Part shown: piece after piece, positions 31,867 through 48,513 of the stretch | How the letters are laid out: the number at the start of each line of letters is the position of its first letter | Position numbering within the stretch: position 1 is the stretch's first letter | Source: a phage | Sequence record: PV357172.2 | Length of the DNA stretch: 64,000 nucleotides | Strand: one strand, 5' to 3' | Position numbers and translations under genes: made by a program | Notes under the pieces: generated by a model | What the model was told of the DNA's origin: nothing | Seen by the model: the letters and a program-made list of their open reading frames with translations, nothing else | Databases searched by the model: none

Positions 31867-31936
31867 TTTGCTTCCGGCTCCAAAATTCTGTATAATATAT
31901 TCATAAATTTGAGAAAACAATAAAAGGAAAACAAAT

Positions 31937-32119: not shown

Positions 32120-32171
32120 TAGACCAACTTTAAACAAATTCAAATCTTAAACTTCATATAAGGAAGAAACA

Positions 32172-36127: not shown

Positions 36128-36161
36128 ATTTTATTAACTGTAGCTAAAACAAAGGAAATAT

Positions 36162-37109: not shown

Positions 37110-37145
37110 TATCCGCATGTAATCTCTGAAGTAAGCCCTGTGTTC

Positions 37146-37175
37146 CCTGGAGAGCGCAGGGCTTTTCTGTATTTA
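37146..37175 (+). terminator. rho-independent terminator
   Basis: Hairpin CCCTG-GAGAGCG-CAGGG followed by CTTTTCTGTATTT. Confidence 0.55.
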
Positions 37176-37299
37176 AGGCAAAAGAAAAAGCCCATAAGTT
37201 ATTCAACTAAGGTCTTTAGTATTTAATTCTTTAGAATCATATAATATTATTGCAGCAACAACGTGCTAACCTTAAGTGCCCTGCAATTTTCCTCTAAAA

Positions 37300-37350
37300 A
37301 GTTAAAAAATTCGATTGCTTGAATGCTAAATTCTCTGTATAATATATTTA
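37300..37350 (+). promoter_or_regulatory. sigma70-like strong early promoter
   Basis: TTGCTT at 37315-37320, 17-nt spacer, TGTATAAT ending at 37343. Confidence 0.6.
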
Positions 37351-37373
37351 TAAATTTGAGAGAGGAATCAAAT

Positions 37374-38429
37374 ATGATTAAGACTGGTCTAGTAATTGGT
37401 AAGTTCGCACCATTAACGCGTGGTCATATTAACCTAATAAACACAGCAGCAACTATGTGTGAACGAGTTATTGTTGTAGTTAGTCATGATAATCGTTGGC
37501 TGGATAAGCAGAACACACGTGATCAGGAAGTATTACAGTTAAAGAATCGACTTCGTTGGTTAGAACAAACTTACGCGGATATTGAGCACATTTCGGTAGA
37601 GTACATTATTGAAGATGATATTCCTGAATATCCGAATGGTTGGCCGGAATATGCTAGAATCCTTAATGAAAATTACGGACATTTGCCTGAGATCACCGTT
37701 TTCTCTAGCGAACTAGACTATGATGCAGAATATAAGAAATATCTGCCGAAGTTTGGTCATTATATTGTAGATTCTGATCGGACTCGTGTTCCAATCTCAG
37801 CTACAATGATTCGTAATGATCTTATGAAGTATTGGGAGTTTCTTCCTAGCTTAGTTCGTAAAGATTACGTGCGTAAGGTTGTAATCATTGGGACTGAAAG
37901 CTCGGGAAAGACTACTTTAACAAAATACCTTGCGAAGCTATACAACACTTCGTGGGTAGAAGAATATGGCCGAACGTATTGTGAAGTTGATCTAGTTGGT
38001 AACGAAAATCTACTTACCAGTGAAGATTACAGTAAAATTGCGTTCAGACACAAAGAGCTAGAGTTTGAAGCAGAACGTACTGCAAATAAGATCATGTTTG
38101 TGGATACAAATGCTTTTATTACTGAGTTCTACCACAGACTTTATGAACATAGTAAGAACCCTGTGGTTACAGCAATTGCAAAAGTAGAACATTACGATTT
38201 AGTAATTGTTCTAGCGCCTACTGTCAAGTGGGTAGATGATGATTTACGTATTAACTCCGATCGTTCAATTACTTCTGAACTGTTCGAGCAGATGAAGAAA
38301 GAATTTCCAAATCAGTTCCCTGAAGGGCGTACTGTTTACATCGACTCTCCGGACTACAAAGTTCGTATGGACGAAGCAGTAAACGCAGTAGACTGGCTGA
38401 TTCATCACTTTAACGTTGGAGAGTTTTAA
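37374..38429 (+). CDS. NadR-like bifunctional NMN adenylyltransferase / ribosylnicotinamide kinase
   Basis: N-terminal nucleotidyltransferase motif GKFAPLTRGHINLI; C-terminal P-loop IIGTESSGKTTL. Confidence 0.65.
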   Translation: MIKTGLVIGKFAPLTRGHINLINTAATMCERVIVVVSHDNRWLDKQNTRDQEVLQLKNRLRWLEQTYADIEHISVEYIIEDDIPEYPNGWPEYARILNENYGHLPEITVFSSELDYDAEYKKYLPKFGHYIVDSDRTRVPISATMIRNDLMKYWEFLPSLVRKDYVRKVVIIGTESSGKTTLTKYLAKLYNTSWVEEYGRTYCEVDLVGNENLLTSEDYSKIAFRHKELEFEAERTANKIMFVDTNAFITEFYHRLYEHSKNPVVTAIAKVEHYDLVIVLAPTVKWVDDDLRINSDRSITSELFEQMKKEFPNQFPEGRTVYIDSPDYKVRMDEAVNAVDWLIHHFNVGEF

Positions 38430-38430
38430 T

Positions 38431-39108
38431 ATGACTAACTATCTCGTAAATGACTTTAAAAACTGGAAACCTCTGGAATATCTGTGGCTGCTCATAGCGG
38501 TTGTCTTCATTAGTTTAGCAAACTATAATGGTACAGCTCTAGATTGGGCTACTGCAATAACCAATGTGGTTTGTGTTATTCTGGTTGCAAAAGGACGTGT
38601 TTCCAACTATATTTGGGGCTTAGTGGGTGTTCTTACATATGGTATTACAGCTTTAAACGCAGATCTTTATGGTAACGCTGCACTAAACCTGCTATACTAC
38701 GTTCCTATGCAGTTTTATGGAATGTACTTATGGCATAAAAATAAACCAAGTAATCTGCCAGACGTTCCAACTAAGGTTCTGACTAAAGCTCAGGCTTTAT
38801 TAACTCTTGGGATTCTAGCAGTAGCTACTCTAGGCTATGGCAGCTTCCTCGCTACCACAGCAGATCCGTTCCCAATGCTCGATGCATTTACTGCGGTTGG
38901 TAGTGTAATTGCTATGTGGCTTATGGTCAAGCAGTATGCTGAACAATGGCTAATCTGGATTGCCATTAATATTGGTACTGTATACATTTGGTTTGTAACT
39001 GCTCAGTCTACAGGTGCTTCTTATGCAATCCTAGCAATGTGGCTGGTATTCTTTGGTAACTCTGTACTTGGAGCCTATAAAGGGTACTTTGTACGCGTTA
39101 ACAAATAA
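38431..39108 (+). CDS. PnuC-like nicotinamide riboside transporter
   Basis: Multi-TM protein immediately downstream of NadR-like gene; ATG at 38431 after GGAGAG. Confidence 0.55.
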   Translation: MTNYLVNDFKNWKPLEYLWLLIAVVFISLANYNGTALDWATAITNVVCVILVAKGRVSNYIWGLVGVLTYGITALNADLYGNAALNLLYYVPMQFYGMYLWHKNKPSNLPDVPTKVLTKAQALLTLGILAVATLGYGSFLATTADPFPMLDAFTAVGSVIAMWLMVKQYAEQWLIWIAINIGTVYIWFVTAQSTGASYAILAMWLVFFGNSVLGAYKGYFVRVNK

Positions 39109-39116
39109 AATAGTTA

Positions 39117-39150
39117 TAGCCCTCAAAGCGAGGGCTATTATCCAGAAAAT
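39117..39150 (+). terminator. rho-independent terminator (weak U-tract)
   Basis: Hairpin AGCCCTC-AAAGC-GAGGGCT followed by ATTATCC. Confidence 0.4.
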
Positions 39151-39151
39151 T

Positions 39152-39192
39152 TCACTTGCTAAATGCCGAGATTTTCTGTATAATATATTTAT
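39152..39192 (+). promoter_or_regulatory. sigma70-like promoter driving tRNA transcription
   Basis: TTGCTA at 39156-39161, 17-nt spacer, TGTATAAT ending at 39184; tRNA-Ser begins about 15 nt downstream. Confidence 0.6.
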
Positions 39193-39198
39193 AAATTC

Positions 39199-39290
39199 GG
39201 AAGATTAACCCTAATTGGTAAGGGAGCATCTTGCTAAGTTGCCAGTAGCTGTGGAAACACGGTGTATCGGTTCAAGTCCGATATCTTCCT
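39199..39290 (+). tRNA. tRNA-Ser (anticodon GCT), long variable arm
   Basis: Perfect acceptor GGAAGAT/ATCTTCC, anticodon loop TTGCTAA, variable-arm hairpin, T-arm ATCGG-TTCAAGT-CCGAT, encoded CCA. Confidence 0.7.
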
Positions 39291-39298
39291 CCAAATTT

Positions 39299-39373
39299 GG
39301 TTCTCAAGCTCATTTGGTATGAGCCGTCGCCTCATAAGCGAAAGGTAGGTAGGTTCGAATCCTCCGGGAGCCA
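39299..39373 (+). tRNA. tRNA with CAT anticodon (Met or Ile2)
   Basis: Acceptor GGTTCTC/GGGAGCC with G-U pairs, D-stem GCTC/GAGC, anticodon loop CTCATAA, T-loop TTCGAAT, encoded CCA. Confidence 0.65.
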
Positions 39374-39393
39374 CCAGATAACTAGGAGACTTT

Positions 39394-39582
39394 ATGTCAC
39401 GCTTTCACGAAATTAAGCAAGAACTGGAAGAACTCGCCTGTCCTGAATGCTTTGGGACAGGTGAATGGAATGATGCTGAACCCGGGGATACGCGGTTTAA
39501 CACTTACGTTTGCACTCACTGTGAAGGTACTGGTGTAAACCCTCTTTACACTATTTCTCTTTTTGTAGGGGTTGCTAAATAA
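39394..39582 (+). CDS. small zinc-ribbon protein (62 aa)
   Basis: CPECFGTGEW...CTHCEGTG DnaJ-like Cys motifs. Confidence 0.45.
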   Translation: MSRFHEIKQELEELACPECFGTGEWNDAEPGDTRFNTYVCTHCEGTGVNPLYTISLFVGVAK

Positions 39583-39588
39583 TGCACT

Positions 39589-39936
39589 TTGAAGATGATG
39601 AAAAAAGAAGCGTTCTACACTGTCCCAGCAATTAATCTGCTCGGTACTGTACTATTTCAGATTAAGTTCTACCTGCGAGACGACTACACTGAAGTGGTAA
39701 ACGCTATTGTACCTGAGTTCTTCGTAAATAATTTCCAAAAGGACTTTAAGTTCTTTATTGATGATGTTTACGATGGTGTGGTTGATCCGGCAGTAGCTCC
39801 AGCTATATACAATGTATTTAATTCTCTGCCAGATCTAGATTTTGATCTAGGACTTATTGAGTCTGGTGAGATTATCTGGGCACTTAATGTTCCAGTGACT
39901 GGATTCCCTGGTTGGCTGCAAGGTTACGAACTCTAA
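39589..39936 (+). CDS. hypothetical protein (115 aa)
   Basis: ORF track. Confidence 0.45.
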   Translation: MKMMKKEAFYTVPAINLLGTVLFQIKFYLRDDYTEVVNAIVPEFFVNNFQKDFKFFIDDVYDGVVDPAVAPAIYNVFNSLPDLDFDLGLIESGEIIWALNVPVTGFPGWLQGYEL

Positions 39937-39944
39937 CAAAATTT

Positions 39945-40027
39945 GGATCTGTGGTGGAATTGGCAATACACACCATGCTTAAAACGTGGCGCTTAAATGA
40001 TTGAGGGTTCGAGCCCCTCCAGATCCA
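39945..40027 (+). tRNA. tRNA-Leu (anticodon TAA), long variable arm
   Basis: Perfect acceptor GGATCTG/CAGATCC, anticodon arm CCATG-CTTAAAA-CGTGG, T-arm GAGGG-TTCGAGC-CCCTC, encoded CCA. Confidence 0.7.
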
Positions 40028-40182
40028 CCAAATTAAGGAAGTAAAAATGAAATCTATTAAGAAAGCACTGCGTAAATTTATGTATTGTCGTTTTCATAGC
40101 ATCAAGGCTTCAACTAATGGTACTACTTACGATCGCTATGATCCTAAGTTTGGCTTACATTCTAAATAACTGGAGAAAACAA

Positions 40183-40389
40183 ATGGCTAATCCTGAAATT
40201 ACGGCACAACGCTTTATGCTGAAAGGAATTATTGCTGAAGCAGGCATGACAGAAGAAGTTGCAGATTTTCAAAAGCAATTCCTCAATATTCTCACTCAAG
40301 CCAAAGAGCTAGGAGAGAAAGAACATGGCGCGGCTATTATGGCAATCACATTGGTTGGGCTTGATCTGGCTGAAGAATCAGGAGTTTAA
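40183..40389 (+). CDS. hypothetical protein (about 68 aa)
   Basis: ATG at 40183 after GGAGAAAACAA; track ORF starts upstream. Confidence 0.45.
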   Translation: MANPEITAQRFMLKGIIAEAGMTEEVADFQKQFLNILTQAKELGEKEHGAAIMAITLVGLDLAEESGV

Positions 40390-40478
40390 CTCCTCCAAGC
40401 AGAAATTTTAAAAATGTACTTGCTTTTTACTTAAGATTTCTGCTATAATAGTTATATAAGTTGATGAGAGGAATCAGA

Positions 40479-40754
40479 ATGTTAAAACGTTTTGCAGCAA
40501 CTGGTATTGAAAGCTCAGTATGTAAATCCTGGGGTGGTTGGGAAGGTGAGATCGAGTGGCTTTATTTCTACAATGTAGAACTTCTTCCAGAGATCAAAGC
40601 TCAATGTATTGAGGCTGGTATGGCTCCTGATGCTACGGCTGATGTTGAAATCAGCATGAATAAGCTAGAGGGTCGAGTAGTCACTGTTACTGATGAAGGT
40701 GAAGAGGTATTCGAACTTCCATTCACTTTGAAAGTCACTCCTTCATTTGATTAA
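40479..40754 (+). CDS. hypothetical protein (about 91 aa)
   Basis: ATG at 40479 after promoter module and GAGAGG. Confidence 0.5.
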   Translation: MLKRFAATGIESSVCKSWGGWEGEIEWLYFYNVELLPEIKAQCIEAGMAPDATADVEISMNKLEGRVVTVTDEGEEVFELPFTLKVTPSFD

Positions 40755-40882
40755 CTGATACAGCACTGAGCAAGTTCTTTAAAATTTGACTTGCTCAGTA
40801 CCTTAAAACTTGGTATAATAGTTATCTAATTTGGAAACATATTTAAAAGTATTCAAATACTAGTTTAAACACTTTTAAATGT

Positions 40883-40966
40883 ACATCGTTGGCAGAATGG
40901 CTATTGTAGCGGTCTGTAAATCCGTGCCCTTCGGGATTGGTGGTTCGAATCTTACACGGCCCGCCA
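40883..40966 (+). tRNA. tRNA-Tyr-like element (GTA anticodon loop), possibly degenerate
   Basis: D-arm and anticodon arm (loop CTGTAAA) fold, variable-arm hairpin GCCC-TTC-GGG, TTCGAAT T-loop, CCA present; T-stem and acceptor pair poorly in my reading. Confidence 0.3.
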
Positions 40967-41068
40967 AATTCTGTGTAGAGTTAAGTAAACCGGTAGCCAA
41001 CCAGCTATCATTGCTGACATCGAATTCAGCCACAGATACCATTTTCATTAATAACTGAGGAAATAGAT

Positions 41069-41254
41069 ATGACAACTCGTGCAATTGCTCGACTAGAAGC
41101 TGATCGTGATAATCTGATTAATAATATTAAGGTTCGTGGTAATATTATTAAGGCTCTGAAAGCTGAACTTCTTGAAGAACTTCAAGGTCAAGTAGAGCGT
41201 CGTGAAGCTCTAAAAGAGGTTGAGGAAGCTATCGAAAAACTCAAAGCTGAGTAA
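41069..41254 (+). CDS. small coiled-coil protein (61 aa)
   Basis: ORF track; GAGGAAATAGAT RBS. Confidence 0.45.
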   Translation: MTTRAIARLEADRDNLINNIKVRGNIIKALKAELLEELQGQVERREALKEVEEAIEKLKAE

Positions 41255-41257
41255 ATT

Positions 41258-41839
41258 ATGCACGGAATATCCTTACCAATTCCAGGGTTTGAGGAGTACT
41301 TAGTAAGTTTGGATGGGTTAGTATTTAGTATCAAATCAAACAAAATACTAACCCCAATAACCAGTAATTACGGATACTTATCTATACGTCTCCATAAAAA
41401 TGGTCAACAGAGAAATACCGGTGTACATAGGATTTTAGCATGTGCATTTAAGAAATTACCAAGTCTAGACTCTGAACTAGAAGTTGACCATATTAACACA
41501 GACATTACTTATTGGGGTCTTAATAACTTACAAGTGCTCACAAAAGAGCAGCATCTAGAAAAGACTTTAAAAGATAAAGGATTTAGTAAACTAAACCATG
41601 ATAATTGTTGTAAGGATTGTGGTAAAGCTATTTCTTTAAAAGCTGAAAAATGTCAGGAGTGCTCTTCACATAAACCAAAAGATATCTCTATAACTAAAGA
41701 AATAATCGAGGTTACAGTAAGAGAGCTAGGCTGGTCAGGTGCAGGGAGAAAGTTAAGTTATTCAGATAATGGGTTGCGTAAAAGATACACTTCTTTAGGA
41801 GGCAATCCTAAAGAACTTAAAAAGTTAAAGGTACTATAG
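41258..41839 (+). CDS. HNH endonuclease with zinc finger and C-terminal HTH
   Basis: HNH region ELEVDHINTDITYWGLNNLQVLTKEQH; CKDCG...CQEC zinc finger; paralog of 43929-44513. Confidence 0.65.
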   Translation: MHGISLPIPGFEEYLVSLDGLVFSIKSNKILTPITSNYGYLSIRLHKNGQQRNTGVHRILACAFKKLPSLDSELEVDHINTDITYWGLNNLQVLTKEQHLEKTLKDKGFSKLNHDNCCKDCGKAISLKAEKCQECSSHKPKDISITKEIIEVTVRELGWSGAGRKLSYSDNGLRKRYTSLGGNPKELKKLKVL

Positions 41840-41901
41840 TCTAACGGTTAGGATACTCCCCTGTCACGGGAGAGGTAGGGTTTCGATTACCCTTAGTACC
41901 G
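41830..41901 (+). tRNA. tRNA-Asp (anticodon GTC)
   Basis: Perfect acceptor GGTACTA/TAGTACC, anticodon arm CTCCC-CTGTCAC-GGGAG, T-arm AGGGT-TTCGATT-ACCCT, CCA; 5' end overlaps HNH stop codon. Confidence 0.7.
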
Positions 41902-41910
41902 CCAAATTAT

Positions 41911-41984
41911 ACATCCATAGCTCAATTGGTTAGAGCTACCGCCTCTTAAGCGGTAGGTTCTAGGTTCAAGTCCTAGTGGGTGTA
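41911..41984 (+). tRNA. tRNA-Lys (anticodon CTT)
   Basis: Acceptor ACATCCA/TGGGTGT, D-stem GCTC/GAGC, anticodon arm ACCGC-CTCTTAA-GCGGT, T-arm CTAGG-TTCAAGT-CCTAG, CCA. Confidence 0.7.
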
Positions 41985-41987
41985 CCA

Positions 41988-42200
41988 AACATCAGAGCAG
42001 CGTGATGTACTGCAAAGACCCAAAGTCCGGGGTGGACTTCTTGATTCAAAGGAGCAGGCACTAATTATCATTCTAGCGTGGTGGAGAGGGGACACCAGCT
42101 TGCCGAGGGTAGAAGCTCGTTCGATTCGAGTGAAAGAATGGTTCTCGTAAATCCGCACAAGTGATAGCAGGTTCAAGTCCTGCCTAGATTGACTTATTAT
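41988..42200 (+). ncRNA. structured noncoding segment with two orphan T-arm-like hairpins (pseudo-tRNAs or small RNA)
   Basis: GCTCG-TTCGATT-CGAGT and GCAGG-TTCAAGT-CCTGC T-arm-like elements with no pairing acceptor stems found; no credible ORF. Confidence 0.3.
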
Positions 42201-42271
42201 GCGTTCGTAGTTAAAAGGTATAATTTTTGGTTGCCAACCAGAAGTTGAGGGTTCGATTCCCTCCGACCGCA
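42201..42271 (+). tRNA. tRNA-Gly (anticodon GCC)
   Basis: Acceptor GCGTTCG/CGACCGC (one mismatch), anticodon arm TTTGG-TTGCCAA-CCAGA, T-arm GAGGG-TTCGATT-CCCTC, CCA. Confidence 0.65.
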
Positions 42272-42587
42272 CCAAATTTAGGTTTCTGCTTCCTAGAGAA
42301 CGGACTCCTAGATAAACAAGGCGATGAGTTTCCGGCCGGTTCTAGTCGCTGAAAATCCTCCCGACCAGGTAGGTGTAAGTAAATGAAAGTTTACTTATTG
42401 AGTAGGTTCCGATAGACCGGCGGGTCTATTCTGGCATTTAAGAGAGGTCTCGCAAACTTCTTTGTCAGCCGTGGGGTTGGTAGCCTCCAGGTGGCCTACA
42501 CAATAAGTAAATTTATTAAAAATTCATTTGCTATTCTGCTTAATTCTCTGTATAATATATTTTATAAAGTGAGTTAACAAAAATTAA

Positions 42588-42660
42588 CAGTGCGTAGCGC
42601 AGTTGGTAGCGTGGGAGCCTTGGGTGCTTCGGGTCGCAGGTTCGAGTCCTGCCGCACTGA
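42588..42660 (+). tRNA. tRNA-Pro (anticodon TGG)
   Basis: Perfect acceptor CAGTGCG/CGCACTG, anticodon arm GGAGC-CTTGGGT-GCTTC, T-arm GCAGG-TTCGAGT-CCTGC, CCA; directly after promoter module. Confidence 0.7.
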
Positions 42661-42669
42661 CCAAACAAT

Positions 42670-42744
42670 TGCGGGTTAGATCTCTGGTAGAGATCGCTAG
42701 TCTCATAAGCTAGAAAGAGGTAGGTTCGATTCCTGCACCCGCTT
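42670..42744 (+). tRNA. tRNA with CAT anticodon (Met/fMet or Ile2)
   Basis: Anticodon loop CTCATAA, T-arm GTAGG-TTCGATT-CCTGC, CCA; position 1-72 appears unpaired (U-U) in my fold. Confidence 0.6.
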
Positions 42745-42767
42745 CCATTTTAATAGAGGATTTCGAA

Positions 42768-42931
42768 ATGAAAGTATTTCGATTAGTAGTAAGTGACAAA
42801 CGGTTAGGTAAGAATACATCAAAATCCTTACTTGCTCATTATGGTAAAAATTGGGATGAAGTAATGGCAGAGTTTAATACTAATCACCCTTACTTGAAAG
42901 TTCACTCTATTAAGGAAGTTTATGCTTATTA
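42768..42931 (+). CDS. small protein (about 54 aa)
   Basis: Below track threshold; ATG at 42768 after AGAGGA; overlaps start of next gene. Confidence 0.35.
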
Positions 42932-43395
42932 ACAGGGTGCTTCAAGCTCTAGATCTTCCAGAGCTCTTTACTATTACCGACCCCTTAATACATCGGTATA
43001 TGGAAAAGTATAATGAAATCTCTGGTAAAAAAGGGAAACTAAAATCCTCAGAATTTAAGTTCTGTTATAGAATGGCAGCATTAAACCTCTTAAAGTACAA
43101 GAGGGAGCATAAAATCCCTATAACAGAAGGATTTGTCTATGTAATAGGTAGTCCAGCATGGCCTGGACTATATAAGATAGGTATGACAGTAGATGTGAAT
43201 GAAAGACTGTCTAGTTATCAAACATATTCGCCTTATCGTGATTACAAGTTATACCATTTCAGATTCTCCTCGGACAAGAGAAGAACTGAAAAAGCATTAC
43301 ATAACCTTCTGAAGGACTACAAAGTATCAGGAGAATGGTTTGAAGTACCTCTGTTAGACGCCTTCAAACTATTAGTAGAAAATTTGGATTGCTAA
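42922..43395 (+). CDS. T5orf172/GIY-YIG-like domain protein
   Basis: Motif GFVYVIGSPAWPGLYKIGMT...R...E; AAGGAAG RBS. Confidence 0.5.
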   Translation: MLINRVLQALDLPELFTITDPLIHRYMEKYNEISGKKGKLKSSEFKFCYRMAALNLLKYKREHKIPITEGFVYVIGSPAWPGLYKIGMTVDVNERLSSYQTYSPYRDYKLYHFRFSSDKRRTEKALHNLLKDYKVSGEWFEVPLLDAFKLLVENLDC

Positions 43396-43460
43396 CTCAA
43401 CTGGATAAGAGTACCGGACCTTTAATCCGTCAGTTCTGGGTTCGAATCCCAGGCAATCCA
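43386..43460 (+). tRNA. tRNA-Lys (anticodon TTT)
   Basis: Perfect acceptor GGATTGC/GCAATCC, anticodon loop CCTTTAA, T-arm CTGGG-TTCGAAT-CCCAG, CCA; 5' end overlaps last codons of upstream CDS. Confidence 0.65.
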
Positions 43461-43748
43461 CCAATTTCAAGAAAAACTCAGTTGCTTGATGCTTAATTTC
43501 TTGTTATAATATTTATATAAATTGATGAGGAGAAATCCTCATCATAGTTCACTAAGGTATTAGCTCGACCTAGGACTGGCTGCCAAAAAGCACGATCCCT
43601 ACGATTTGGGAGAAGTTCTAGATTAGTCCACTAGATTCAGCGGCAACTGAATAGTGTATCGGTTTTGCGAGATGACGCGGTTCCTTCCGCTCGAAGCGAA
43701 GGTGCTGTAGTTACGCCGAGCTAATAGCCTTAGTAAACTAAGGAATTT

Positions 43749-43819
43749 GGGGATATAGTTTAATGGTAGAACATCTGCTTTGCACGCAGAAGACGAGGGT
43801 TCAACTCCCTCTTTCTCCA
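43749..43819 (+). tRNA. tRNA-Ala (anticodon TGC)
   Basis: Acceptor GGGGATA/TTTCTCC (one mismatch), anticodon arm TCTGC-TTTGCAC-GCAGA, T-arm GAGGG-TTCAACT-CCCTC, CCA. Confidence 0.65.
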
Positions 43820-43827
43820 CCAAATTT

Positions 43828-43909
43828 GGGGCTATGCTGGAACTGGTAGACAATACGGCCTTAGATTCCGTAGCTTAAATGCGTGGGAGTTCGAGTCTCC
43901 CTAGCCCCA
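43828..43909 (+). tRNA. tRNA-Leu (anticodon TAG), long variable arm
   Basis: Perfect acceptor GGGGCTA/TAGCCCC, anticodon loop CTTAGAT, T-arm GGGAG-TTCGAGT-CTCCC, CCA. Confidence 0.65.
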
Positions 43910-43928
43910 CCAACTTATAGGGTAATGT

Positions 43929-44513
43929 ATGCAGTTTGTACCAATAAAAGATGCACCAGGGTATTTAGTAAATGAAACAGGGGATGTGTTATCTACATTT
44001 ACTAATAAAATCTTATCAAGATATATAGTTGATGGGTACCCTGCTGTAAAATTACAGATAAATGGTAAGCAAACTTCGGTACTTATACACCGAATTATTT
44101 CTCATGTATTTGGGGACTTATATAATCTATTTGACCCTGAATTAGAAGTAGATCACAAGGATAGAGATAGGCTGAATCTATCTAAAGATAATCTTCAAGT
44201 TTTATCAAAAATAGAACATCAGAAGAAAACTAATAAAGATAATGGATGGTCTGATAGTAGAGTACCTTGCCCCTTATGTGGAAATCTAATGCTTCAGAGA
44301 TCAGTAACATGTACAAATTGTAAGCCAAAACCTACAGGAAAGTTAATAAAACCAGAATTGTCCTTAGAAGACATAACTGAAAAGGTTTTATTAATGGGGT
44401 GGGTTAAGGCAGCTAAAGATCTAGAAGTATCAGAGTCCACTTTACGTAGACGATATACTAAACTAACCGGATTAAGCCCGAAAGTATTAACAGAACAACG
44501 GAAAAGCAAATAG
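43929..44513 (+). CDS. HNH endonuclease with zinc finger and C-terminal HTH
   Basis: HNH region ELEVDHKDRDRLNLSKDNLQVL; CPLCG...CTNC zinc finger; paralog of 41258-41839. Confidence 0.65.
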   Translation: MQFVPIKDAPGYLVNETGDVLSTFTNKILSRYIVDGYPAVKLQINGKQTSVLIHRIISHVFGDLYNLFDPELEVDHKDRDRLNLSKDNLQVLSKIEHQKKTNKDNGWSDSRVPCPLCGNLMLQRSVTCTNCKPKPTGKLIKPELSLEDITEKVLLMGWVKAAKDLEVSESTLRRRYTKLTGLSPKVLTEQRKSK

Positions 44514-44590
44514 ACTGGTGACTAAACCCGATTGGAAATCGGTTGAGTGGTAGCAATACCGCCTTATGGGTTCAACTCCCATCTTTTCCG
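44500..44590 (+). tRNA. tRNA-Ser (anticodon GGA), long variable arm
   Basis: Perfect acceptor GGAAAAG/CTTTTCC, anticodon loop TTGGAAA, T-arm ATGGG-TTCAACT-CCCAT, CCA; 5' end lies inside last codons of HNH gene. Confidence 0.6.
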
Positions 44591-44605
44591 CCAAACAATT
44601 TATAT

Positions 44606-44697
44606 GGTAGGTCAATCCAATGGCTGGCGCTGGACTCCGACTTGAAATCGGTTGATCGTAGTGATACGGTGTAAGGGTTCGATCCCCTTACCTACCT
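44606..44697 (+). tRNA. tRNA-Ser (anticodon TGA), long variable arm
   Basis: Perfect acceptor GGTAGGT/ACCTACC, anticodon loop CTTGAAA, T-arm AAGGG-TTCGATC-CCCTT, CCA. Confidence 0.65.
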
Positions 44698-44955
44698 CCA
44701 AATCTTGAAGTATGCCGGAATCGGTAGACGGGGCTGCCTAAAAGGTTTATAGGGAACATCCACTCCCTGCAACATACCTCATAAAGCGGCTGAGATAAAT
44801 GGTCTATCTCGTGAAGGTTCAAGTCCTTCTGCTTCTTGATACATCTATGGCTCAAAGTGTAACGGTGCTATTTGATGCTCTTGGTAAGACTTCCCCGACA
44901 TGCGTTCGGGAGTAAGCTGCTAAGACTAGAGTAGAAGAGTTTCTGAGAGCCGCCA

Positions 44956-45070
44956 CAATTGAAAATTCGTACTCGTCTTGAGCTGCGTGCAATAGGAGAT
45001 AACTTGATTAGTATTCTAGAACATGCTAATTGAGGATGGTTTCGCTAACCCTGCGAGTTTTCAATTGTGG
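44956..45070. repeat. 14-bp perfect inverted repeat GCCACAATTGAAAA / TTTTCAATTGTGGC separated by about 88 nt
   Basis: Read directly; distal arm overlaps the 5' acceptor of tRNA-His. Confidence 0.5.
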
Positions 45071-45140
45071 CTATATCATAATTGGTTAATGATCCTGATT
45101 GTGAATCAGGCCTATGTGGATTCGAATTCCACTAGCCACC
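45067..45140 (+). tRNA. tRNA-His (anticodon GTG)
   Basis: Perfect acceptor GTGGCTA/TAGCCAC, anticodon arm CCTGA-TTGTGAA-TCAGG, T-arm GTGGA-TTCGAAT-TCCAC, C discriminator, CCA. Confidence 0.65.
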
Positions 45141-45168
45141 CCAAATTAACTTAAATAGGAAATAAAAT

Positions 45169-45369
45169 ATGGCTGATTTCTGCAAGCAATGCTCCCTTGA
45201 TATGTGGGGCAGAGATACTGGTGACTTATCTGGTCTGATTACAGAAGCCGAAGTCAAAGAAGGTTATAGTGCAGTTGTGATTTGTGAAGGCTGCGGTGTT
45301 ATCCGTGTAGACCACACCGGTAAGCGTTTGGAAGAACCAGTTCCAATTGCGCAAGTTCCTGTAGAATAA
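45169..45369 (+). CDS. hypothetical protein (66 aa)
   Basis: ORF track; Cys pairs CKQC...CEGC suggest a zinc ribbon. Confidence 0.45.
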   Translation: MADFCKQCSLDMWGRDTGDLSGLITEAEVKEGYSAVVICEGCGVIRVDHTGKRLEEPVPIAQVPVE

Positions 45370-45377
45370 AAAATTAT

Positions 45378-45450
45378 TGGAGTGTAGCTCAACTGGCAGA
45401 GCGACGGTTTCTGACACCGTAGGTTTCTAGTTCGATCCTAGACATTCCAG
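45378..45450 (+). tRNA. tRNA-Gln (anticodon CTG)
   Basis: Acceptor TGGAGTG/CATTCCA, D-stem GCTC/GAGC, anticodon arm ACGGT-TTCTGAC-ACCGT, T-arm TCTAG-TTCGATC-CTAGA, CCA. Confidence 0.65.
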
Positions 45451-45459
45451 CCAAACAAT

Positions 45460-45534
45460 TGGGGATTAGCTTAGCTTGGCCTAAAGCTTCGGCCTTTGAA
45501 GTCGAGATCATTGGTTCAAATCCAATATCCCCTG
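45460..45534 (+). tRNA. tRNA-Gln (anticodon TTG)
   Basis: Anticodon arm TCGGC-CTTTGAA-GTCGA, T-arm ATTGG-TTCAAAT-CCAAT, CCA; first acceptor pair mismatched in my fold. Confidence 0.6.
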
Positions 45535-45545
45535 CCAAACAATAA

Positions 45546-45618
45546 GCGATTAAGCACACGGGTTGTGCCGCAGGCCTTCCAAGCCCCGCTGAGTAGGGTT
45601 CGATTCCCTCTAGCCGCT
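45546..45618 (+). tRNA. tRNA, anticodon uncertain (possibly TCC, Gly)
   Basis: T-arm with TTCGATT loop, acceptor with one mismatch, CCA; anticodon stem weak in my fold. Confidence 0.4.
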
Positions 45619-45638
45619 CCAACTTTAAGGAAACATTT

Positions 45639-45860
45639 ATGCACGTTTTTGAGTTTCGTGATAAAAGTAACAATAAACGAGTTATTGTTATTGGAGAAAC
45701 ATACCTAGCATACGAACAAACTGATGGCTCTGTTATCTTGAATGATGAGAAAGCAAATTTTAGCTTTTATCCAGAAGAACCTTATGAAGAGTTTCGTACT
45801 AAGTTTCTTTTACCAGACTGGCTAGCAGTAGCCGAGCAACGAGAATCCGAAGATGGCTGA
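45639..45860 (+). CDS. hypothetical protein (73 aa)
   Basis: ORF track; AAGGAAACATTT RBS. Confidence 0.45.
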   Translation: MHVFEFRDKSNNKRVIVIGETYLAYEQTDGSVILNDEKANFSFYPEEPYEEFRTKFLLPDWLAVAEQRESEDG

Positions 45861-46014
45861 TAACCTAAAATTAAGGGTTGACAAACAAAAGAAATACGTT
45901 GAGGTTGAATTAGGCGAAGAACGCTTAAAGCTAACTTTCGAGTTTCTTCAGCAGTTGGCTATGACAGTCATGACTGATAAGTCTCCTGTTATTGAAAAAG
46001 AAATCCCGTTGAAA
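45853..46014 (+). CDS. small protein (about 53 aa)
   Basis: Below track threshold; ATG overlaps upstream stop (ATGGCTGA). Confidence 0.35.
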
Positions 46015-46025
46015 TAGGAAGCAAC

Positions 46026-46418
46026 ATGGAGTTTACTTGTTTAAATTGCGGAATCACAAAACCTAAAAGTAGGGGTTCCGCAGGTAAGTATTGTGGTGCT
46101 GCTTGTCAGCAGGAGTACCAGACAAAGCAAAAAGTATTAAAGTGGCTGGCAGGTGAAGAACCTGGTTATACTGGTAAAGCTGCACAATTAAAACCTTTTG
46201 TTAGGAAGTGGCTGTGGGATACTCGTGGTACTGCTTGTGAAGTATGTGGTTGGGATGGGAAACATCCAATTGACGGAGCAGTTTTAACTGAGGTAGATCA
46301 TATAGATGGAGATGCAACTAACTGTTCTCCAGAAAATCTAAAGATTCTCTGCCCTAACTGTCACTCTATGACACCTACGCATAGGGCCAGAAATAGAGTT
46401 TCAACAAGACAACGATAG
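46026..46418 (+). CDS. small HNH endonuclease (130 aa)
   Basis: HNH/zinc motifs TEVDHIDGDATNCSPENLKILCPNCH. Confidence 0.6.
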   Translation: MEFTCLNCGITKPKSRGSAGKYCGAACQQEYQTKQKVLKWLAGEEPGYTGKAAQLKPFVRKWLWDTRGTACEVCGWDGKHPIDGAVLTEVDHIDGDATNCSPENLKILCPNCHSMTPTHRARNRVSTRQR

Positions 46419-46489
46419 CTCTTAAAGCATTGCTGGCGATGCAACGGTCTTGTAAACCGTGGAACCGGGTTCGATTCCTGGTGGGAGCA
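46418..46489 (+). tRNA. tRNA-Thr (anticodon TGT)
   Basis: Acceptor GCTCTTA/TGGGAGC, D-stem GCAT/ATGC, anticodon arm ACGGT-CTTGTAA-ACCGT, T-arm CCGGG-TTCGATT-CCTGG, CCA; first base is last base of HNH stop codon. Confidence 0.7.
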
Positions 46490-46567
46490 CCAAAATTAAA
46501 AAATTCATTTGCCTTCTCTCTTATTTCTTGTTATAATATTTATATAAATTAATGAGAGGGAAACCAA

Positions 46568-46861
46568 ATGAAACGTTATCTTTCTGTCGTGTTCCAAACT
46601 GGTGGTCAACGCTACACTTATGAATTTCCTGAGTCCTGGAAAATTAAAGAAGGTGATCAAGTTGTTGTATTAACACCTCGTGAAGGCTTCAAAGTAGTAA
46701 CGGTTAAACAAGTATTTCCAAAAGATCACGAACCATCTAAGGCTATTCAGTACAAGATGATTCATGGTCTGGTACGAAAAGTACCTAGAACAGAAGTCGA
46801 AGTAGATAAAACTGGGGAAGCTAAATACCAGTATACCTCTTACTTAGATGAAATGATGTAA
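46568..46861 (+). CDS. hypothetical protein (97 aa)
   Basis: ORF track; promoter module and GAGAGGGAAACC RBS upstream. Confidence 0.5.
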   Translation: MKRYLSVVFQTGGQRYTYEFPESWKIKEGDQVVVLTPREGFKVVTVKQVFPKDHEPSKAIQYKMIHGLVRKVPRTEVEVDKTGEAKYQYTSYLDEMM

Positions 46862-46862
46862 T

Positions 46863-46935
46863 GCTCTGATAGTTCAACAGGTTAGAACAGACGACCGATA
46901 ATCGTCAAATCTTGGTTCGATCCCAAGTCGGAGTA
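46863..46935 (+). tRNA. tRNA-Ile (anticodon GAT)
   Basis: Acceptor GCTCTGA/TCGGAGT, D-stem GTTC/GAAC, anticodon arm GACGA-CCGATAA-TCGTC, T-arm CTTGG-TTCGATC-CCAAG, CCA. Confidence 0.7.
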
Positions 46936-46944
46936 CCAAATTAT

Positions 46945-47017
46945 AGTTAGTTGGCAGAGTGGTTATGCACCTCCTTCATACGGAGCGACTACAGTGGTTC
47001 AAATCCACTACTAACTA
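46945..47017 (+). tRNA. tRNA with CAT anticodon (Met or Ile2)
   Basis: Perfect acceptor AGTTAGT/ACTAACT, anticodon loop TTCATAC, T-arm AGTGG-TTCAAAT-CCACT, CCA. Confidence 0.6.
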
Positions 47018-47023
47018 CCAAAC

Positions 47024-47062
47024 AGAGGATCTGGTCATTGTACCAGATCTCTGTGTTTATTA
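47024..47062 (+). terminator. rho-independent terminator closing the tRNA cluster
   Basis: Hairpin GATCTGGT-CATTGT-ACCAGATC followed by TCTGTGTTTATT. Confidence 0.55.
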
Positions 47063-47203
47063 AACTGAATGGGACTATCAATCCACAAGCCGGACTACGA
47101 GCGATTATCGGGTATTCACTTAATAAACAGCCTGCCCCCCAGTTTTTATCTTGCTTCTGGGTTAACAAAAAGCTGAGCCAAATTCTAATATCAGGGAGAT
47201 CTA

Positions 47204-47572
47204 ATGAAAGCATATCAAAATCTTAAATCCGGCGTAATTAACCTTGTTCATGAAAATCAGATCATTCAGCTATACTCTAAAGACGGTGAACTTAAACAGA
47301 AAGTTCTAGTTGAAGATCTAGAAGGTATCACACCTCACTTTGACCCTGAAGCCTTTCGCATTGTAGATGTGGAAGTGGTTCCCCAAGTCGAGGGTGGTCA
47401 GCACCTAAATGTCAATGTGTTAAGCCGTGATCAGCTTTTAGATGCACAGAAACATCCTGAAAAATATCCTCAGTTGACCATCCGTGTCTCTGGCTATGCT
47501 GTTCGATTTAACGCATTGACGCGTGAACAACAGAACGACGTTATTAGTCGTACATTTACTCAGGCGATATAA
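47204..47572 (+). CDS. autonomous glycyl radical cofactor (GrcA/YfiD-like)
   Basis: C-terminal glycyl radical signature [29 protein letters not shown]; size 122 aa. Confidence 0.65.
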
Positions 47573-47653
47573 TGGGGTTTGGATACGATTTCTCCCAGCT
47601 ACGCAAGGTAGTCGAGCAAACTCCGTTTATCTCCCAAGTTTTAGGAGAAATGT

Positions 47654-47968
47654 GTGGATCGAGCATTAAGACGCCATCACCGGCAACGTGTGAAGAACAA
47701 CCGCAAGAAGTATTGGACAGTCTTTCCACATGAAGAAAGCCCTAAGCGATTAGGTATTATCACTACTACTCCTTGCATCTGTTCTTGCTGGATGTGTGGG
47801 AACCCTCGCAAATATTATAAGAATAGTAAAGCAGGTATGAAAACCTCGGAGATCAGGAAAATGGGAGCAATGATTATGGGCATCTCAAATGATGAATTTG
47901 ATGGCTTTGTAGGATTCGGAGAAGGAACTAGCTCAGGCTGTTTCGAATATGAACTCCCCGATCTGTGA
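47654..47968 (+). CDS. Cys-rich hypothetical protein (104 aa)
   Basis: ORF track (GTG start); my reading differs from the track by 2 nt here, so boundaries follow the track. Confidence 0.4.
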   Translation: MDRALRRHHRQRVKNNRKKYWTVFPHEESPKRLGIITTTPCICSCWMCGNPRKYYKNSKAGMKTSEIRKMGAMIMGISNDEFDGFVGFGEGTSSGCFEYELPDL

Positions 47969-48089
47969 TTAACAACAAACCCCAGCTATGGAATAAGTAG
48001 TCTGGGGTTTTTCTATATACAGGTAAATAATTTATGTATAATAAAATTCACCCACATTAGGTTAATTCAAAAGACTTAATGGAGGTAAT

Positions 48090-48437
48090 ATGAGCCGTAC
48101 TTATCGTAGACAAACTGGTGATCAGTGGTGGAAGTCTAAAGCTAATTACACCCAGGGGTATACTTTCCTCAAAGCAAGTGGCTACTGGATTCGTGTTATT
48201 TATGCTAAATCCTGGGATGATGTAGAACAGGAAATGAAGGAAGCAACTGTTCGTAATGAGAAAAAGGATGGTTATAACTGGAATTCTATTAGTAAGAATG
48301 TTAAGTGGCATTCTAATAAAATGGTTCGTCAAGGGAATCGTCAAGAACTCCACCGCGTGATGAAAGATCCAGAAAATTATGATTATAATCGCGATCATGA
48401 CATGCGTAAGCGTGGATTATGGTGGTGCTATGACTAA
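48090..48437 (+). CDS. hypothetical protein (115 aa)
   Basis: ATG at 48090 after GGAGGTAAT. Confidence 0.5.
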   Translation: MSRTYRRQTGDQWWKSKANYTQGYTFLKASGYWIRVIYAKSWDDVEQEMKEATVRNEKKDGYNWNSISKNVKWHSNKMVRQGNRQELHRVMKDPENYDYNRDHDMRKRGLWWCYD

Positions 48438-48513
48438 ATTCTGAAATAATTCATTTGCTAAACCTCTCTTTTCTTGCTATAATATATTTATAAATTGATG
48501 AGAGAGGTTTGAA

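What the first reader, a model, noticed from the sequence alone, without database searches (positions are those of the whole stretch)
43470..43748. Promoter followed by a 9-bp palindrome and about 200 nt of noncoding sequence before tRNA-Ala
Directly after a promoter module lies the perfect palindrome TGATGAGGA-GAAA-TCCTCATCA, then an ORF-free stretch with GC-rich hairpins (for example GCGGTTCCTTCCGC). This looks like a leader structure or small RNA at the start of a tRNA transcript; the palindrome could be an operator or processing site.
Basis: seen in the sequence. Interest (0 to 1): 0.45.

Follow-up and report, generated by a model that had tools for sequence, protein, structure and literature searches.

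The report
Phage T5 stable RNA "RNA 2H"
The flagged stretch is this T5-like phage's copy of an already annotated but functionally unexplained small RNA gene (promoter P13b plus "RNA 2H"); comparison across related phages suggests it folds into a conserved, doubly knotted structure cut out of a tRNA transcript.

Summary
A T5-type early promoter (-35 at 43482-87, extended -10 at 43502-10) is followed by a perfect 9-bp hairpin (43523-44) and an ORF-free stretch up to tRNA-Ala.

It is not new as an object. The stretch is 97% identical over all 172 nt to "RNA 2H, stable RNA with unknown functions", and the promoter matches "P13b". Both are annotated in the GenBank records of BF23 and T5 st0. The mature RNA maps to 43558-43729.

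What I add is a fold and a distribution:
- The RNA has a ~22-bp closing stem (P1). The annotated ends lie inside it with a 2-nt 3' overhang, the RNase III signature.
- The core has helices P2-P7 and two pseudoknots: GGACU/AGUCC and UGCC/GGCA.
- All helices are supported by compensatory changes across T5-type, Sugarlandvirus, Eos and KKP_3711 phages. Weaker homologues occur in Pectobacterium phage My1 and in Aeromonas phages.
- There is no Rfam family, no E. coli similarity and no conserved ORF.

The palindrome is an accessory RNA 5' hairpin, variable or absent in relatives. It is not an operator and not the processing site.

A viable T5 deletion mutant lacks the region, so the RNA is dispensable in the laboratory. 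Its function remains unknown. I judge a trans-acting accessory RNA most likely.

The parts
43463..43536 (+). Early promoter, orthologue of T5/BF23 'promoter P13b'. -35 TTGCTT at 43482-87; extended -10 TGtTATAAT at 43502-10; predicted transcription start about 43517.
   Evidence: blastn maps the BF23 P13b feature to 43463-43536. It is annotated in BF23 and T5 st0. It is one of 8 promoter-module copies. The +1 position is inferred from spacing and from the T5 PN25 promoter (own knowledge).
43523..43544 (+). Its 5' arm is the Shine-Dalgarno-like GAGGAG of the promoter/leader module. It lies outside the mature RNA.
   Evidence: Hairpin character is kept with different sequences in KKP_3711, L049 and My1. 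G.U variants occur. The same module carries a real RBS and CDS at P11.
43558..43729 (+). Mature RNA 2H (172 nt) as annotated in BF23 and T5 st0.
   Evidence: 97.1% identity over 172/172 nt to the BF23 rna2H feature.
43546..43567 (+). P1, 5' strand of the long closing stem. The presumed RNase III cut lies between G43557 and U43558.
   Evidence: 21 pairs, 100% paired, 6 pairs with double changes.
43717..43739 (+). P1, 3' strand. It contains the conserved unpaired G43727. The presumed cut lies between C43729 and U43730, which leaves a 2-nt 3' overhang.
43568..43571 (+). P2, 5' strand (ACCU). It pairs with 43661-43664.
   Evidence: helix 2: 2 of 4 pairs compensatory. ACCU/GGGU changes to AUAC/GUAU and ACAC/GUGU in other lineages.
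43573..43577 (+). Pseudoknot PK1, 5' strand (GGACU). It pairs with AGUCC at 43625-43629 in the loop of P5.
   Evidence: helix 3: 100% paired, 4 of 5 pairs compensatory. The homologous columns also pair in My1 and the Aeromonas phage.
43581..43584 (+). Pseudoknot PK2, 5' strand (UGCC). It pairs with GGCA at 43642-43645 in the loop of P6.
   Evidence: helix 4: 3 of 4 pairs compensatory. Other lineages have AAUC/GAUU, UACC/GGUA, UUGC/GCAA and UGCC/GGCG.
43585..43593 (+). A-rich strand (43585-89) followed by the P3 5' strand GCAC (43590-93). P3 pairs with GUGU at 43654-57, inside the conserved motif AGUGUA (43653-58).
   Evidence: helix 5; only one-sided changes, G.U to A-U. In the Aeromonas phage it is UAC/GUA.
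43595..43612 (+). P4: variable hairpin, 4-6 bp with a loop of 8 to ~30 nt.
   Evidence: helix 6: 4 compensatory pairs. The same pattern is seen within the Aeromonas clade.
43617..43635 (+). P5 hairpin, UCUAG/CUAGA. Its loop carries the PK1 3' strand.
   Evidence: helix 7: 3 compensatory pairs.
43636..43651 (+). P6 hairpin, UUCAG/CUGAA. Its loop carries the PK2 3' strand.
   Evidence: helix 8: 4 compensatory pairs.
43661..43664 (+). P2, 3' strand (GGUU in this window, GGGU in most relatives).
43667..43716 (+). P7: long irregular hairpin in one of two interchangeable versions. This window has type 1, the same as T5 and BF23.
   Evidence: helices 9-10: 8 compensatory pairs.
43730..43748 (+). 19-nt trailer between the RNA 2H 3' end and tRNA-Ala. 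It would be released by RNase P cleavage at the tRNA 5' end.
   Evidence: Coordinates. The processing step is inferred.
43749..43912 (+). tRNA-Ala(UGC) and tRNA-Leu(UAG), the next genes downstream on the same strand. They are presumably co-transcribed from P13b.
   Evidence: No promoter module or terminator pattern lies between them and RNA 2H. Co-transcription is inferred.

Best explanation
The region is the P13b-RNA 2H unit of T5-like phages: a stand-alone gene for a stable, highly structured non-coding RNA at the head of a tRNA transcription unit.

How it is made:
- Host sigma-70 RNA polymerase starts at about 43517 from a strong T5 early promoter (annotated by homology).
- The first ~28 nt fold into hairpin P0. 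This locks up a Shine-Dalgarno-like GAGGAG and an AUG inherited from the duplicated promoter/leader module (inferred).
- Sequences 43546-67 and 43717-39 then pair into a ~22-bp stem, P1.
- A double-strand-specific nuclease, most likely host RNase III, cuts both strands with a 2-bp stagger (43557/58 and 43729/30). This releases the 172-nt RNA 2H. It also leaves a downstream precursor from which RNase P frees tRNA-Ala. The ends come from database annotation; the enzyme is inferred from the geometry.

The released RNA is compact. P2 and P3 enclose three hairpins (P4-P6). The loops of P5 and P6 fold back onto the 5' strand as two pseudoknots. Hairpins P4 and P7 are variable. This fold is supported here by covariation.

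What it does is not known. My best inference is that it acts in trans as a nuclease-resistant accessory RNA that binds or decoys a host or phage factor during early infection. It is dispensable on laboratory E. coli.
For: Identity:
- 97% identity over 172/172 nt to BF23 rna2H, and P13b maps to the promoter.
- The same features are annotated in BF23 and T5 st0.
- 421 phage records carry at least 80% of the region.

Processing:
- The annotated 5' U43558 and 3' C43729 lie inside P1 and give a 2-nt 3' overhang.
- The GG/CC pairs and an adjacent unpaired purine at that site are kept in every lineage, while other P1 pairs covary.

Fold:
- 95.6% of cells are paired, against 32-40% when partners are slid.
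- 34 pairs show double changes, against 2-9 in the slid controls.
- The covariation score is 0.448, against at most 0.10 in the slid controls.
- 4 of 5 PK1 pairs and 3 of 4 PK2 pairs are compensatory.
- A covariance model of the core finds collinear homologues in My1 (23.6 bits, E about 3e-4) and an Aeromonas phage (16.3 bits, E about 0.02-0.06). In both, PK1 and PK2 remain complementary.

Not coding: all frames carry stops.

A gene in its own right rather than a generic tRNA leader:
- Other promoter copies abut tRNAs directly with no such RNA: 39146 before tRNA-Ser at 39199, and 42518 before tRNA-Pro at 42588.
- In KKP_3711 and STG2 an ORF follows the RNA.
- The invariant core is far more elaborate than a cleavage stem needs.

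Dispensable: T5 mutant 123 (deletion 29191-32442) is viable (PMC11464382). Those coordinates span the RNA 2H locus in AY587007.
Against: - No expression or end-mapping data for this phage were available to me. The ends and the word 'stable' rest on database annotation whose experimental basis I could not read.
- RNase III is inferred from geometry only.
- The covariation comes from only about 5-7 independent lineages. The alignment was registered by hand to the model, which inflates pair counts (caveat).
- P3 shows only one-sided changes.
- The Aeromonas match is weak, and the Vibrio phage pVp-1 has no detectable copy.
- Nothing computed here identifies a partner or an activity, so the trans-acting function is a guess (I put it at about 0.4).
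- In nearly all lineages the RNA sits immediately upstream of a tRNA. That is also what a cis-acting role would predict.
Confidence: 0.8

Rival explanations
1. Cis-acting leader. The structured RNA exists to serve the transcript it heads. It could provide an RNase III entry site that speeds maturation of the downstream tRNAs, as the processing stalks of rRNA operons do. Or it could modify the transcribing polymerase against termination, as the HK022 put RNAs and the rrn leader do. On this view the stable 172-nt species is a by-product.
For: The RNA is promoter-proximal in every lineage. It is usually within ~20 nt of a tRNA: Ala in T5 and Sugarlandvirus, Leu(UAG) in My1, Tyr in the Aeromonas phages. 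P1 geometry matches a processing stalk.
Against: Two other promoters of the same family in this window drive tRNAs with no leader RNA. In KKP_3711 and STG2 an ORF, not a tRNA, follows the RNA. A double-pseudoknot core with long invariant single strands is unnecessary for a cleavage stem. The RNA is annotated as a stable species.
Confidence: 0.2
2. tRNA-like mimic. After cleavage, the top of P1 plus the unpaired purine and the 3'-CC resemble an acceptor stem with a discriminator base and CC. The CCA-adding enzyme would complete this end. The RNA would then act as a decoy or substrate for tRNA-binding enzymes or for tRNA-targeting defence nucleases.
For: An unpaired purine followed by CC and then the cut is conserved in all lineages, while neighbouring pairs covary: G-CC|U in T5, Sugarlandvirus and My1; A-CC|U in the Aeromonas phages. 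The gene lies in the tRNA cluster. T5 tRNAs are known to counter defence systems (PMC11464382; PMC10644984).
Against: ARAGORN and the Rfam tRNA, tmRNA and tRNA-like models do not match. No T-loop or D-loop signature was seen. CCA is not encoded, whereas the phage's own tRNAs encode it. In the PARIS study, partial rescue of T5-123 was reported for the cloned fragment encoding tRNA-Pro/fMet/Lys/Val. In AY587007 those four genes lie at 31934-32441 and the RNA 2H locus lies outside that interval. The conserved GG/CC may simply be an RNase III determinant.
Confidence: 0.1
3. The palindrome is a DNA operator for a phage or host repressor that controls P13b.
For: It is a perfect 9-bp inverted repeat centred about 17 bp downstream of the start site, a position where repressors can block transcription.
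Against: The sequence is not conserved, although the hairpin is. It is replaced by unrelated hairpins or by a 115-nt insert, and it is absent in Sugarlandvirus, Eos and the Aeromonas phages, which keep the promoter. No second copy exists in 64 kb. A->G variants keep only RNA-level G.U pairing. T5 itself has a mismatch.
Confidence: 0.04
4. The core is a self-cleaving ribozyme or a ligand-sensing riboswitch.
For: Nested pseudoknots and invariant single-stranded nucleotides are typical of both classes.
Against: There is no match to any Rfam ribozyme or riboswitch model at E up to 1-5. No expression platform or terminator follows. The annotated ends have the stagger expected of a protein dsRNA nuclease, not ends at a ribozyme core.
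Confidence: 0.05
5. A small protein-coding gene. Many automated phage annotations call it 'hypothetical protein'.
For: Several GenBank records annotate a CDS over the region. A 76-codon ORF on the minus strand, 43623-43853, exists in the window.
Against: All six frames of the core carry 3-6 stops in the window. No frame stays open across homologues. The minus-strand ORF runs antisense through tRNA-Ala. The substitution pattern is base-pair compensatory.
Confidence: 0.01

Closest known systems
RNA 2H (gene rna2H) with promoter P13b of phages T5 and BF23 (GenBank AY692264, AJ604530)
   Same: Same element: 97% identity over the whole 172 nt, the same promoter upstream and the same tRNA-Ala/tRNA-Leu downstream.
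   Different: The window lacks the tRNA-Val that precedes P13b in T5 and BF23. The database entries give no structure and no function; the fold and the distribution described here are additions.
RNase III processing stalks: 16S/23S stems of rRNA operons and the T7 early R sites (own knowledge)
   Same: Flanking sequences pair into a stem of more than 20 bp. Staggered cleavage of that stem excises the enclosed RNA and separates it from downstream genes.
   Different: Here the excised RNA is a 172-nt pseudoknotted RNA of unknown function. The dependence on RNase III has not been tested.
Phage T4 stable RNAs, species 1 and 2 (rnaC, rnaD), in its tRNA cluster (own knowledge)
   Same: Phage-encoded stable small RNAs that are co-located and co-processed with tRNAs, non-essential, and of unknown function for decades.
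   Different: No homology was tested or is claimed. T4 belongs to a different family, and the T4 RNAs are not known to be excised from an RNase III stem of this kind.
phi29 packaging RNA (pRNA, ~174 nt)
   Same: Similar size. It is made from an early promoter. Its loop-to-strand 4-5-nt pairings covary between relatives, and covariation alone cannot say whether such pairings form within one molecule or between molecules.
   Different: There is no Rfam pRNA match. T5-like phages have no known need for an RNA in packaging, and a deletion mutant is viable.
HK022 put RNAs and the rrn leader: promoter-proximal cis-acting antitermination RNAs (own knowledge)
   Same: A structured RNA that is the first thing transcribed from a phage early promoter, ahead of untranslated genes.
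   Different: The put RNAs are two simple hairpins that act only in cis. RNA 2H is excised, accumulates, and is absent from other tRNA promoters of the same phage.

Membership tests
T5/BF23 RNA 2H | Full-length sequence homology to the annotated rna2H feature | tested here: met
   172/172 nt aligned at 97.1% identity, window 43558-43729.
T5/BF23 RNA 2H | Synteny: P13b promoter upstream, tRNA-Ala and tRNA-Leu(UAG) downstream | tested here: met
T5/BF23 RNA 2H | Accumulates as a discrete stable RNA in infected cells | not testable with these tools
   Only the wording of the database annotation is available ('stable RNA with unknown functions'). The primary paper was not found in the library.
RNase III substrate | Double-stranded stem of about two helical turns (20 bp or more) | tested here: met
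   P1 has 21-22 pairs with one 1x1 mismatch and one bulge. It is 100% paired across 18 sequences.
RNase III substrate | Product ends staggered with a 2-nt 3' overhang | tested here: met
   The annotated ends U43558 and C43729 leave C43728-C43729 overhanging. This rests on annotated ends, not on ends I measured.
RNase III substrate | Cleavage depends on rnc in vivo or on RNase III in vitro | not testable with these tools
   This needs an experiment.
T5 early (sigma-70) promoter | TTGCTT, 17-18 nt spacer, TATAAT(A), AT-rich upstream region and conserved initial transcribed region | tested here: met
   Promoter activity itself was not tested.
tRNA / tmRNA / tRNA-like structures | Match to ARAGORN or to the Rfam tRNA-clan, tmRNA or TLS models | tested here: not met
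   No call in 43464-43748, nor in the homologues.
Any Rfam 15 family (6S, RNase P, Y RNA, pRNA, HDV-like and other ribozymes, riboswitches) | Covariance-model match | tested here: not met
   No hit at E up to 1 in the window region, or at E up to 5 in five divergent homologues including the 115-nt insert.
Intrinsic terminator / attenuator (for hairpin P0) | GC-rich hairpin followed by a U-run on the transcribed strand | tested here: not met
   On the + strand the hairpin is followed by UAGUUCAC. The pattern scan reports it only on the - strand.
DNA operator (for the palindrome) | Conserved inverted-repeat sequence, often repeated in the genome | tested here: not met
   It is unique in the window. 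Its sequence is not conserved among relatives that keep the promoter.

The most novel reading that the evidence does not exclude
RNA 2H would be the founding member of an undescribed class of doubly pseudoknotted phage RNAs, found in several lineages of Demerecviridae but not detected in Vibrio phage pVp-1. It would have a specific trans-acting activity. One candidate is a tRNA-acceptor mimic: its discriminator-plus-CC end would be created by RNase III and completed to CCA, and it would titrate or decoy a tRNA-directed host enzyme or defence nuclease. Another is an RNA that forms multimers through its loop-strand pairings.
Probability: 0.15. Interest if true: 0.75.

Novelty: already known. Interest (0 to 1): 0.42.

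Why it matters
T5 is a classical model phage. Its tRNA cluster has recently become important because individual phage tRNAs neutralise bacterial defence systems: PARIS and retron Eco7.

The cluster also encodes seven annotated "stable" or "tRNA-like" RNAs whose function the database records give as unknown.

The analysis indicates three things about RNA 2H. It has a complex fold supported by covariation. That fold is conserved from Escherichia, Salmonella and Klebsiella phages to Pectobacterium phage My1 and, more weakly, Aeromonas phages. And it has no Rfam family. Together these turn an overlooked annotation line into a concrete, testable object, with defined ends, helices, pseudoknots and invariant single strands for mutagenesis and pull-downs.

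If it proves to be a decoy or an enzyme-binding RNA, it would add an RNA-based layer to phage takeover or counter-defence. If not, it remains an ordinary, already catalogued accessory RNA.

Tried and rejected
1. Rfam scans with permissive thresholds on the window region and on five divergent homologues, including the 115-nt insert. They returned nothing but the flanking tRNAs.
2. The MFE helix CUAGGAC/GUUCUAG and the lower part of an extended P6 helix (CACUA/UAGUG). I rejected both in favour of P5 plus PK1, because the Sugarlandvirus, Eos and KKP sequences compensate only the latter.
3. Degenerate-motif scans of IMG/VR (two) and of the metagenome collection (one). They found only members of lineages already in hand, plus chance hits. 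One new KKP-like metagenomic variant, L049, turned up.
4. blastn of the core against 5,426 complete E. coli genomes: no match. So the RNA is not a copy of a host RNA, and it has no long antisense target.
5. Covariance-model search of the Vibrio phage pVp-1 tRNA region, with filters on and off: no homologue.
6. Literature searches for T5/BF23 stable RNAs, T5 transcriptomes and structured RNAs of Demerecviridae. I found no paper describing the structure or function of RNA 2H.
7. An alternative hairpin in this window, CCUUAG-UAAA-CUAAGG at the 3' end of P1, considered as an expression platform. It is not conserved in BF23 or Epseptimavirus.
8. Reading hairpin P0 as a Shine-Dalgarno-masking device holds for the T5-type and My1 phages, but the KKP_3711 hairpin has no SD-like motif. 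I therefore keep it only as an inference.
9. Coding potential was rejected.

Full report
**What is there**

The window is the tRNA region of a T5-like phage, with 19 tRNA genes on the + strand. The finding lies between tRNA-Lys(UUU) (43386-43463) and tRNA-Ala(UGC) (43749-43822). Reading the sequence confirms each element:
- Promoter: TTGCTT at 43482-87, a 17-nt spacer, then TGtTATAAT at 43502-10.
- Palindrome: the perfect inverted repeat TGATGAGGA-GAAA-TCCTCATCA at 43523-44.
- Noncoding stretch: about 200 nt with stops in all six frames.

The generic promoter scan missed the promoter because its -35 hexamer matches TTGACA in only 3 of 6 positions. It is nevertheless one of eight copies of a ~56-nt T5 early-promoter module in 35000-48500, and it fits the T5 consensus quoted in the AKFV33 record. 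The palindrome is unique in the 64 kb even when 3 mismatches are allowed. The whole intergenic stretch folds much better than shuffled sequence (z = -4.5).

**It is already annotated**

blastn against 50,697 phage records finds the stretch in 540 records, and 421 of them carry at least 80% of it. They are Tequintavirus and Epseptimavirus phages of Escherichia, Salmonella and Klebsiella.

Two curated records name it. The BF23 tRNA-region record AJ604530 has 'promoter P13b' followed by the misc_RNA 'rna2H: RNA 2H, stable RNA with unknown functions'. The T5 st0 record AY692264 carries the same two features.

Direct blastn of the BF23 features onto the window puts P13b at 43463-43536. It puts RNA 2H at 43558-43729 with 172/172 nt aligned at 97.1% identity. 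The transcription start is predicted at about A43517. This rests on the spacing from the -10 element, the extent of the 75-nt promoter feature, and the known T5 PN25 promoter (own knowledge).

**How the RNA is cut out**

Sequences 43546-67 and 43717-39 form a 21-22-bp stem, P1. The annotated ends of RNA 2H lie inside this stem. The 5' end is U43558. The 3' end is C43729, and C43728-C43729 overhang. A 2-bp stagger in a stem of two helical turns is the signature of RNase III (established knowledge). The enzyme itself is therefore an inference.

Cleavage would leave three products:
- a 41-nt leader carrying the palindrome hairpin;
- the 172-nt RNA;
- a 19-nt trailer joined to tRNA-Ala, which RNase P would remove.

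The two G-C pairs at the cut, and an unpaired purine next to them (G43727), are kept in every lineage examined, while other P1 pairs covary.

**The fold**

T5-type sequences alone are nearly invariant in the core, so I looked for divergent homologues.
- Sugarlandvirus phages have a diverged copy in the same place: promoter, then ~215 nt, then tRNA-Ala and tRNA-Leu(UAG). These are IME260, B01, PWKp9S, Sugarland and two metagenomic contigs.
- Phage Eos, Enterobacter phage KKP_3711 and one metagenomic contig (L049) form further lineages.

Comparing these lineages replaced part of the MFE model. The supported architecture is:
- P1;
- P2, ACCU/GGGU;
- P3, GCAC/GUGU, which closes a junction of three hairpins, P4, P5 and P6;
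- a second variable hairpin, P7;
- two pseudoknots, in which the strand between P2 and P3 pairs with the loop of P5 (PK1: GGACU/AGUCC, 43573-77 with 43625-29) and with the loop of P6 (PK2: UGCC/GGCA, 43581-84 with 43642-45).

I tested this on a hand-registered alignment of 18 distinct sequences (A4). The formal count gives:

| Measure | Model | Partners slid by 1-3 columns |
|---|---|---|
| Cells paired | 95.6% | 32-40% |
| Pairs with changes on both sides | 34 | 2-9 |
| Covariation score | 0.448 | at most 0.10 |

None of 500 shuffles reached the observed values for cells paired, pairs or cells changed on both sides, or the covariation score. The count of further pair types did not exceed the shuffles (485 of 500 were at least as high). 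PK1 has 4 of 5 pairs compensatory, and PK2 has 3 of 4.

There are three caveats. The sequences represent only about five independent lineages. I fitted the register of P5 and P6 by hand. P3 shows only one-sided changes.

**Wider distribution**

A covariance model of the core (R1) recovers all known members at 84-120 bits. It also finds two more distant candidates.
- Pectobacterium phage My1 (Mccorquodalevirinae): 23.6 bits, E about 3e-4.
- Aeromonas phage AhP_Mru1 (Shenzhenvirus): 16.3 bits, E about 0.02-0.06.

Both hits lie in ORF-free gaps directly behind a T5-type promoter and directly in front of a tRNA (Leu-UAG and Tyr respectively). Both have a long P1 with the same GG/purine-CC site. 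Both keep PK1 and PK2 complementary in the homologous columns with yet other sequences: in My1 PK1 is GAGUC/GGCUC and PK2 is UUGC/GCAA; in the Aeromonas phage PK1 is GACG/CGUC and PK2 is UGCC/GGCG. Within the Aeromonas clade, P4 again varies with compensation while the core is invariant.

Vibrio phage pVp-1 has no detectable copy. Motif scans of IMG/VR and of the metagenome collection added no further lineage.

**The palindrome (P0)**

P0 is an RNA hairpin in the leader, outside the mature RNA. Its 5' arm is the Shine-Dalgarno-like part of the duplicated promoter/leader module. The paralogous module P11 (46488-46563) carries a real RBS and CDS at the same place.

Its sequence is not conserved, but its hairpin character is:
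- KKP_3711 and L049 have a different top with three compensated pairs.
- My1 has an unrelated 12-13-bp hairpin that again buries AAGGAG.
- phiLLS, YZU-L1, 8sent65, Kp150049 and Ob_P carry a ~115-nt structured insert on the same stem base.
- Sugarlandvirus, Eos and the Aeromonas phages have nothing there.

Natural A->G variants keep G.U pairs. This argues for an accessory RNA hairpin that masks a vestigial ribosome-binding site and/or protects the 5' end (inference). It argues against both an operator and a processing site.

**Function**

- There is no Rfam family match for any variant.
- There is no similarity in E. coli genomes.
- There is no conserved ORF.
- The viable T5 mutant 123 lacks 29191-32442 (PMC11464382). 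This interval runs from tRNA-Gln to tRNA-Pro in AY587007 and includes the RNA 2H locus. The RNA is therefore dispensable on laboratory E. coli. In that study, partial rescue of the mutant from PARIS was reported for the cloned fragment encoding tRNA-Pro/fMet/Lys/Val. In AY587007 those four genes lie at 31934-32441 and the RNA 2H locus lies outside that interval.
- Two other promoters of the same family in this window drive tRNAs with no leader RNA. In KKP_3711 and STG2 an ORF follows the RNA.

I therefore favour an independent, trans-acting accessory RNA (about 0.4) over a purely cis-acting processing or antitermination leader (about 0.2). The conserved purine-CC 3' end leaves room for a tRNA-acceptor-mimic reading (about 0.1). 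None of these can be decided computationally.

**Verdict**

The object is already known as RNA 2H with promoter P13b. What is added here is a pseudoknotted fold supported by covariation, the RNase III-type excision geometry, and a family distribution across several Demerecviridae lineages.

Noticed in passing
window 40969-41041, 42069-42194, 42402-42502, 44704-44848, 44849-44955, 44960-45065: These are orthologues of six further BF23/T5 'stable' or 'tRNA-like' RNAs of unknown function: RNA3, RNA2, RNA IV, RNA1, RNA I and RNA III. They match at 85-100% identity. Rfam gives only sub-threshold tRNA-like hits nearby (44606-44696, 45545-45618, 35479-35550).
   Followed up: partly
window 43464-43471, between tRNA-Lys and P13b: The tRNA-Val(UAC) gene that sits between tRNA-Lys and promoter P13b in T5 and BF23 is absent from this window. 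There is no blastn match to it anywhere in the 64 kb.
   Followed up: partly
window 35217, 37305, 39146, 40781, 42518, 43472, 46499, 48445 (each ~56 nt): Eight copies of the T5 early-promoter module, including its conserved initial transcribed region. The copies at 39146 and 42518 abut tRNA genes directly. Others are followed by an RBS and an ORF.
   Followed up: partly
L003 (phiLLS) about 355-470; also L006, L010, L011, L015, L036: In some Tequintavirus and Epseptimavirus phages the short P0 hairpin is replaced by a ~115-nt insert on the same TTGATG/CATCAA stem base. The insert has one compensated pair (GATACCAG/CTGGTATC versus GATATCAG/CTGATATC) and no Rfam match. It may be a separate small structured module.
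   Followed up: partly
window 43667-43716 and the homologous P7 in L004-L011, L013, L039, L049: Hairpin P7 exists as two interchangeable modules whose distribution cuts across lineages. Type 1 occurs in T5, BF23, Eos and 8sent65. Type 2 occurs in most Epseptimavirus phages, Sugarlandvirus and KKP_3711. Type 2 has an invariant loop, UGGCUAAU, on covarying stems, which suggests a contact or binding site and exchange by recombination.
   Followed up: partly
window 41258-41839, 42922-43395, 43929-44513: Two HNH-type ORFs and one T5orf172 (GIY-YIG-like) ORF are interleaved with the tRNA genes. The 42922-43395 ORF overlaps the start of tRNA-Lys by 10 nt. These look like homing-endonuclease insertions and may explain the mosaic gene order between relatives.
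   Followed up: no
L060 (Vibrio phage pVp-1) 18892-19227: A 336-nt ORF-free gap lies directly upstream of tRNA-Leu(UAG), the tRNA that follows the RNA in My1 and, after an intervening ORF, in KKP_3711. It has no match to the RNA 2H core model. It could hold an unrelated or very diverged structured RNA.
   Followed up: partly
window 43523-43544, minus strand: Read on the minus strand, the palindrome followed by ATTTATATAA fits the simple terminator pattern. No minus-strand transcription is expected here, so this is probably incidental.
   Followed up: no
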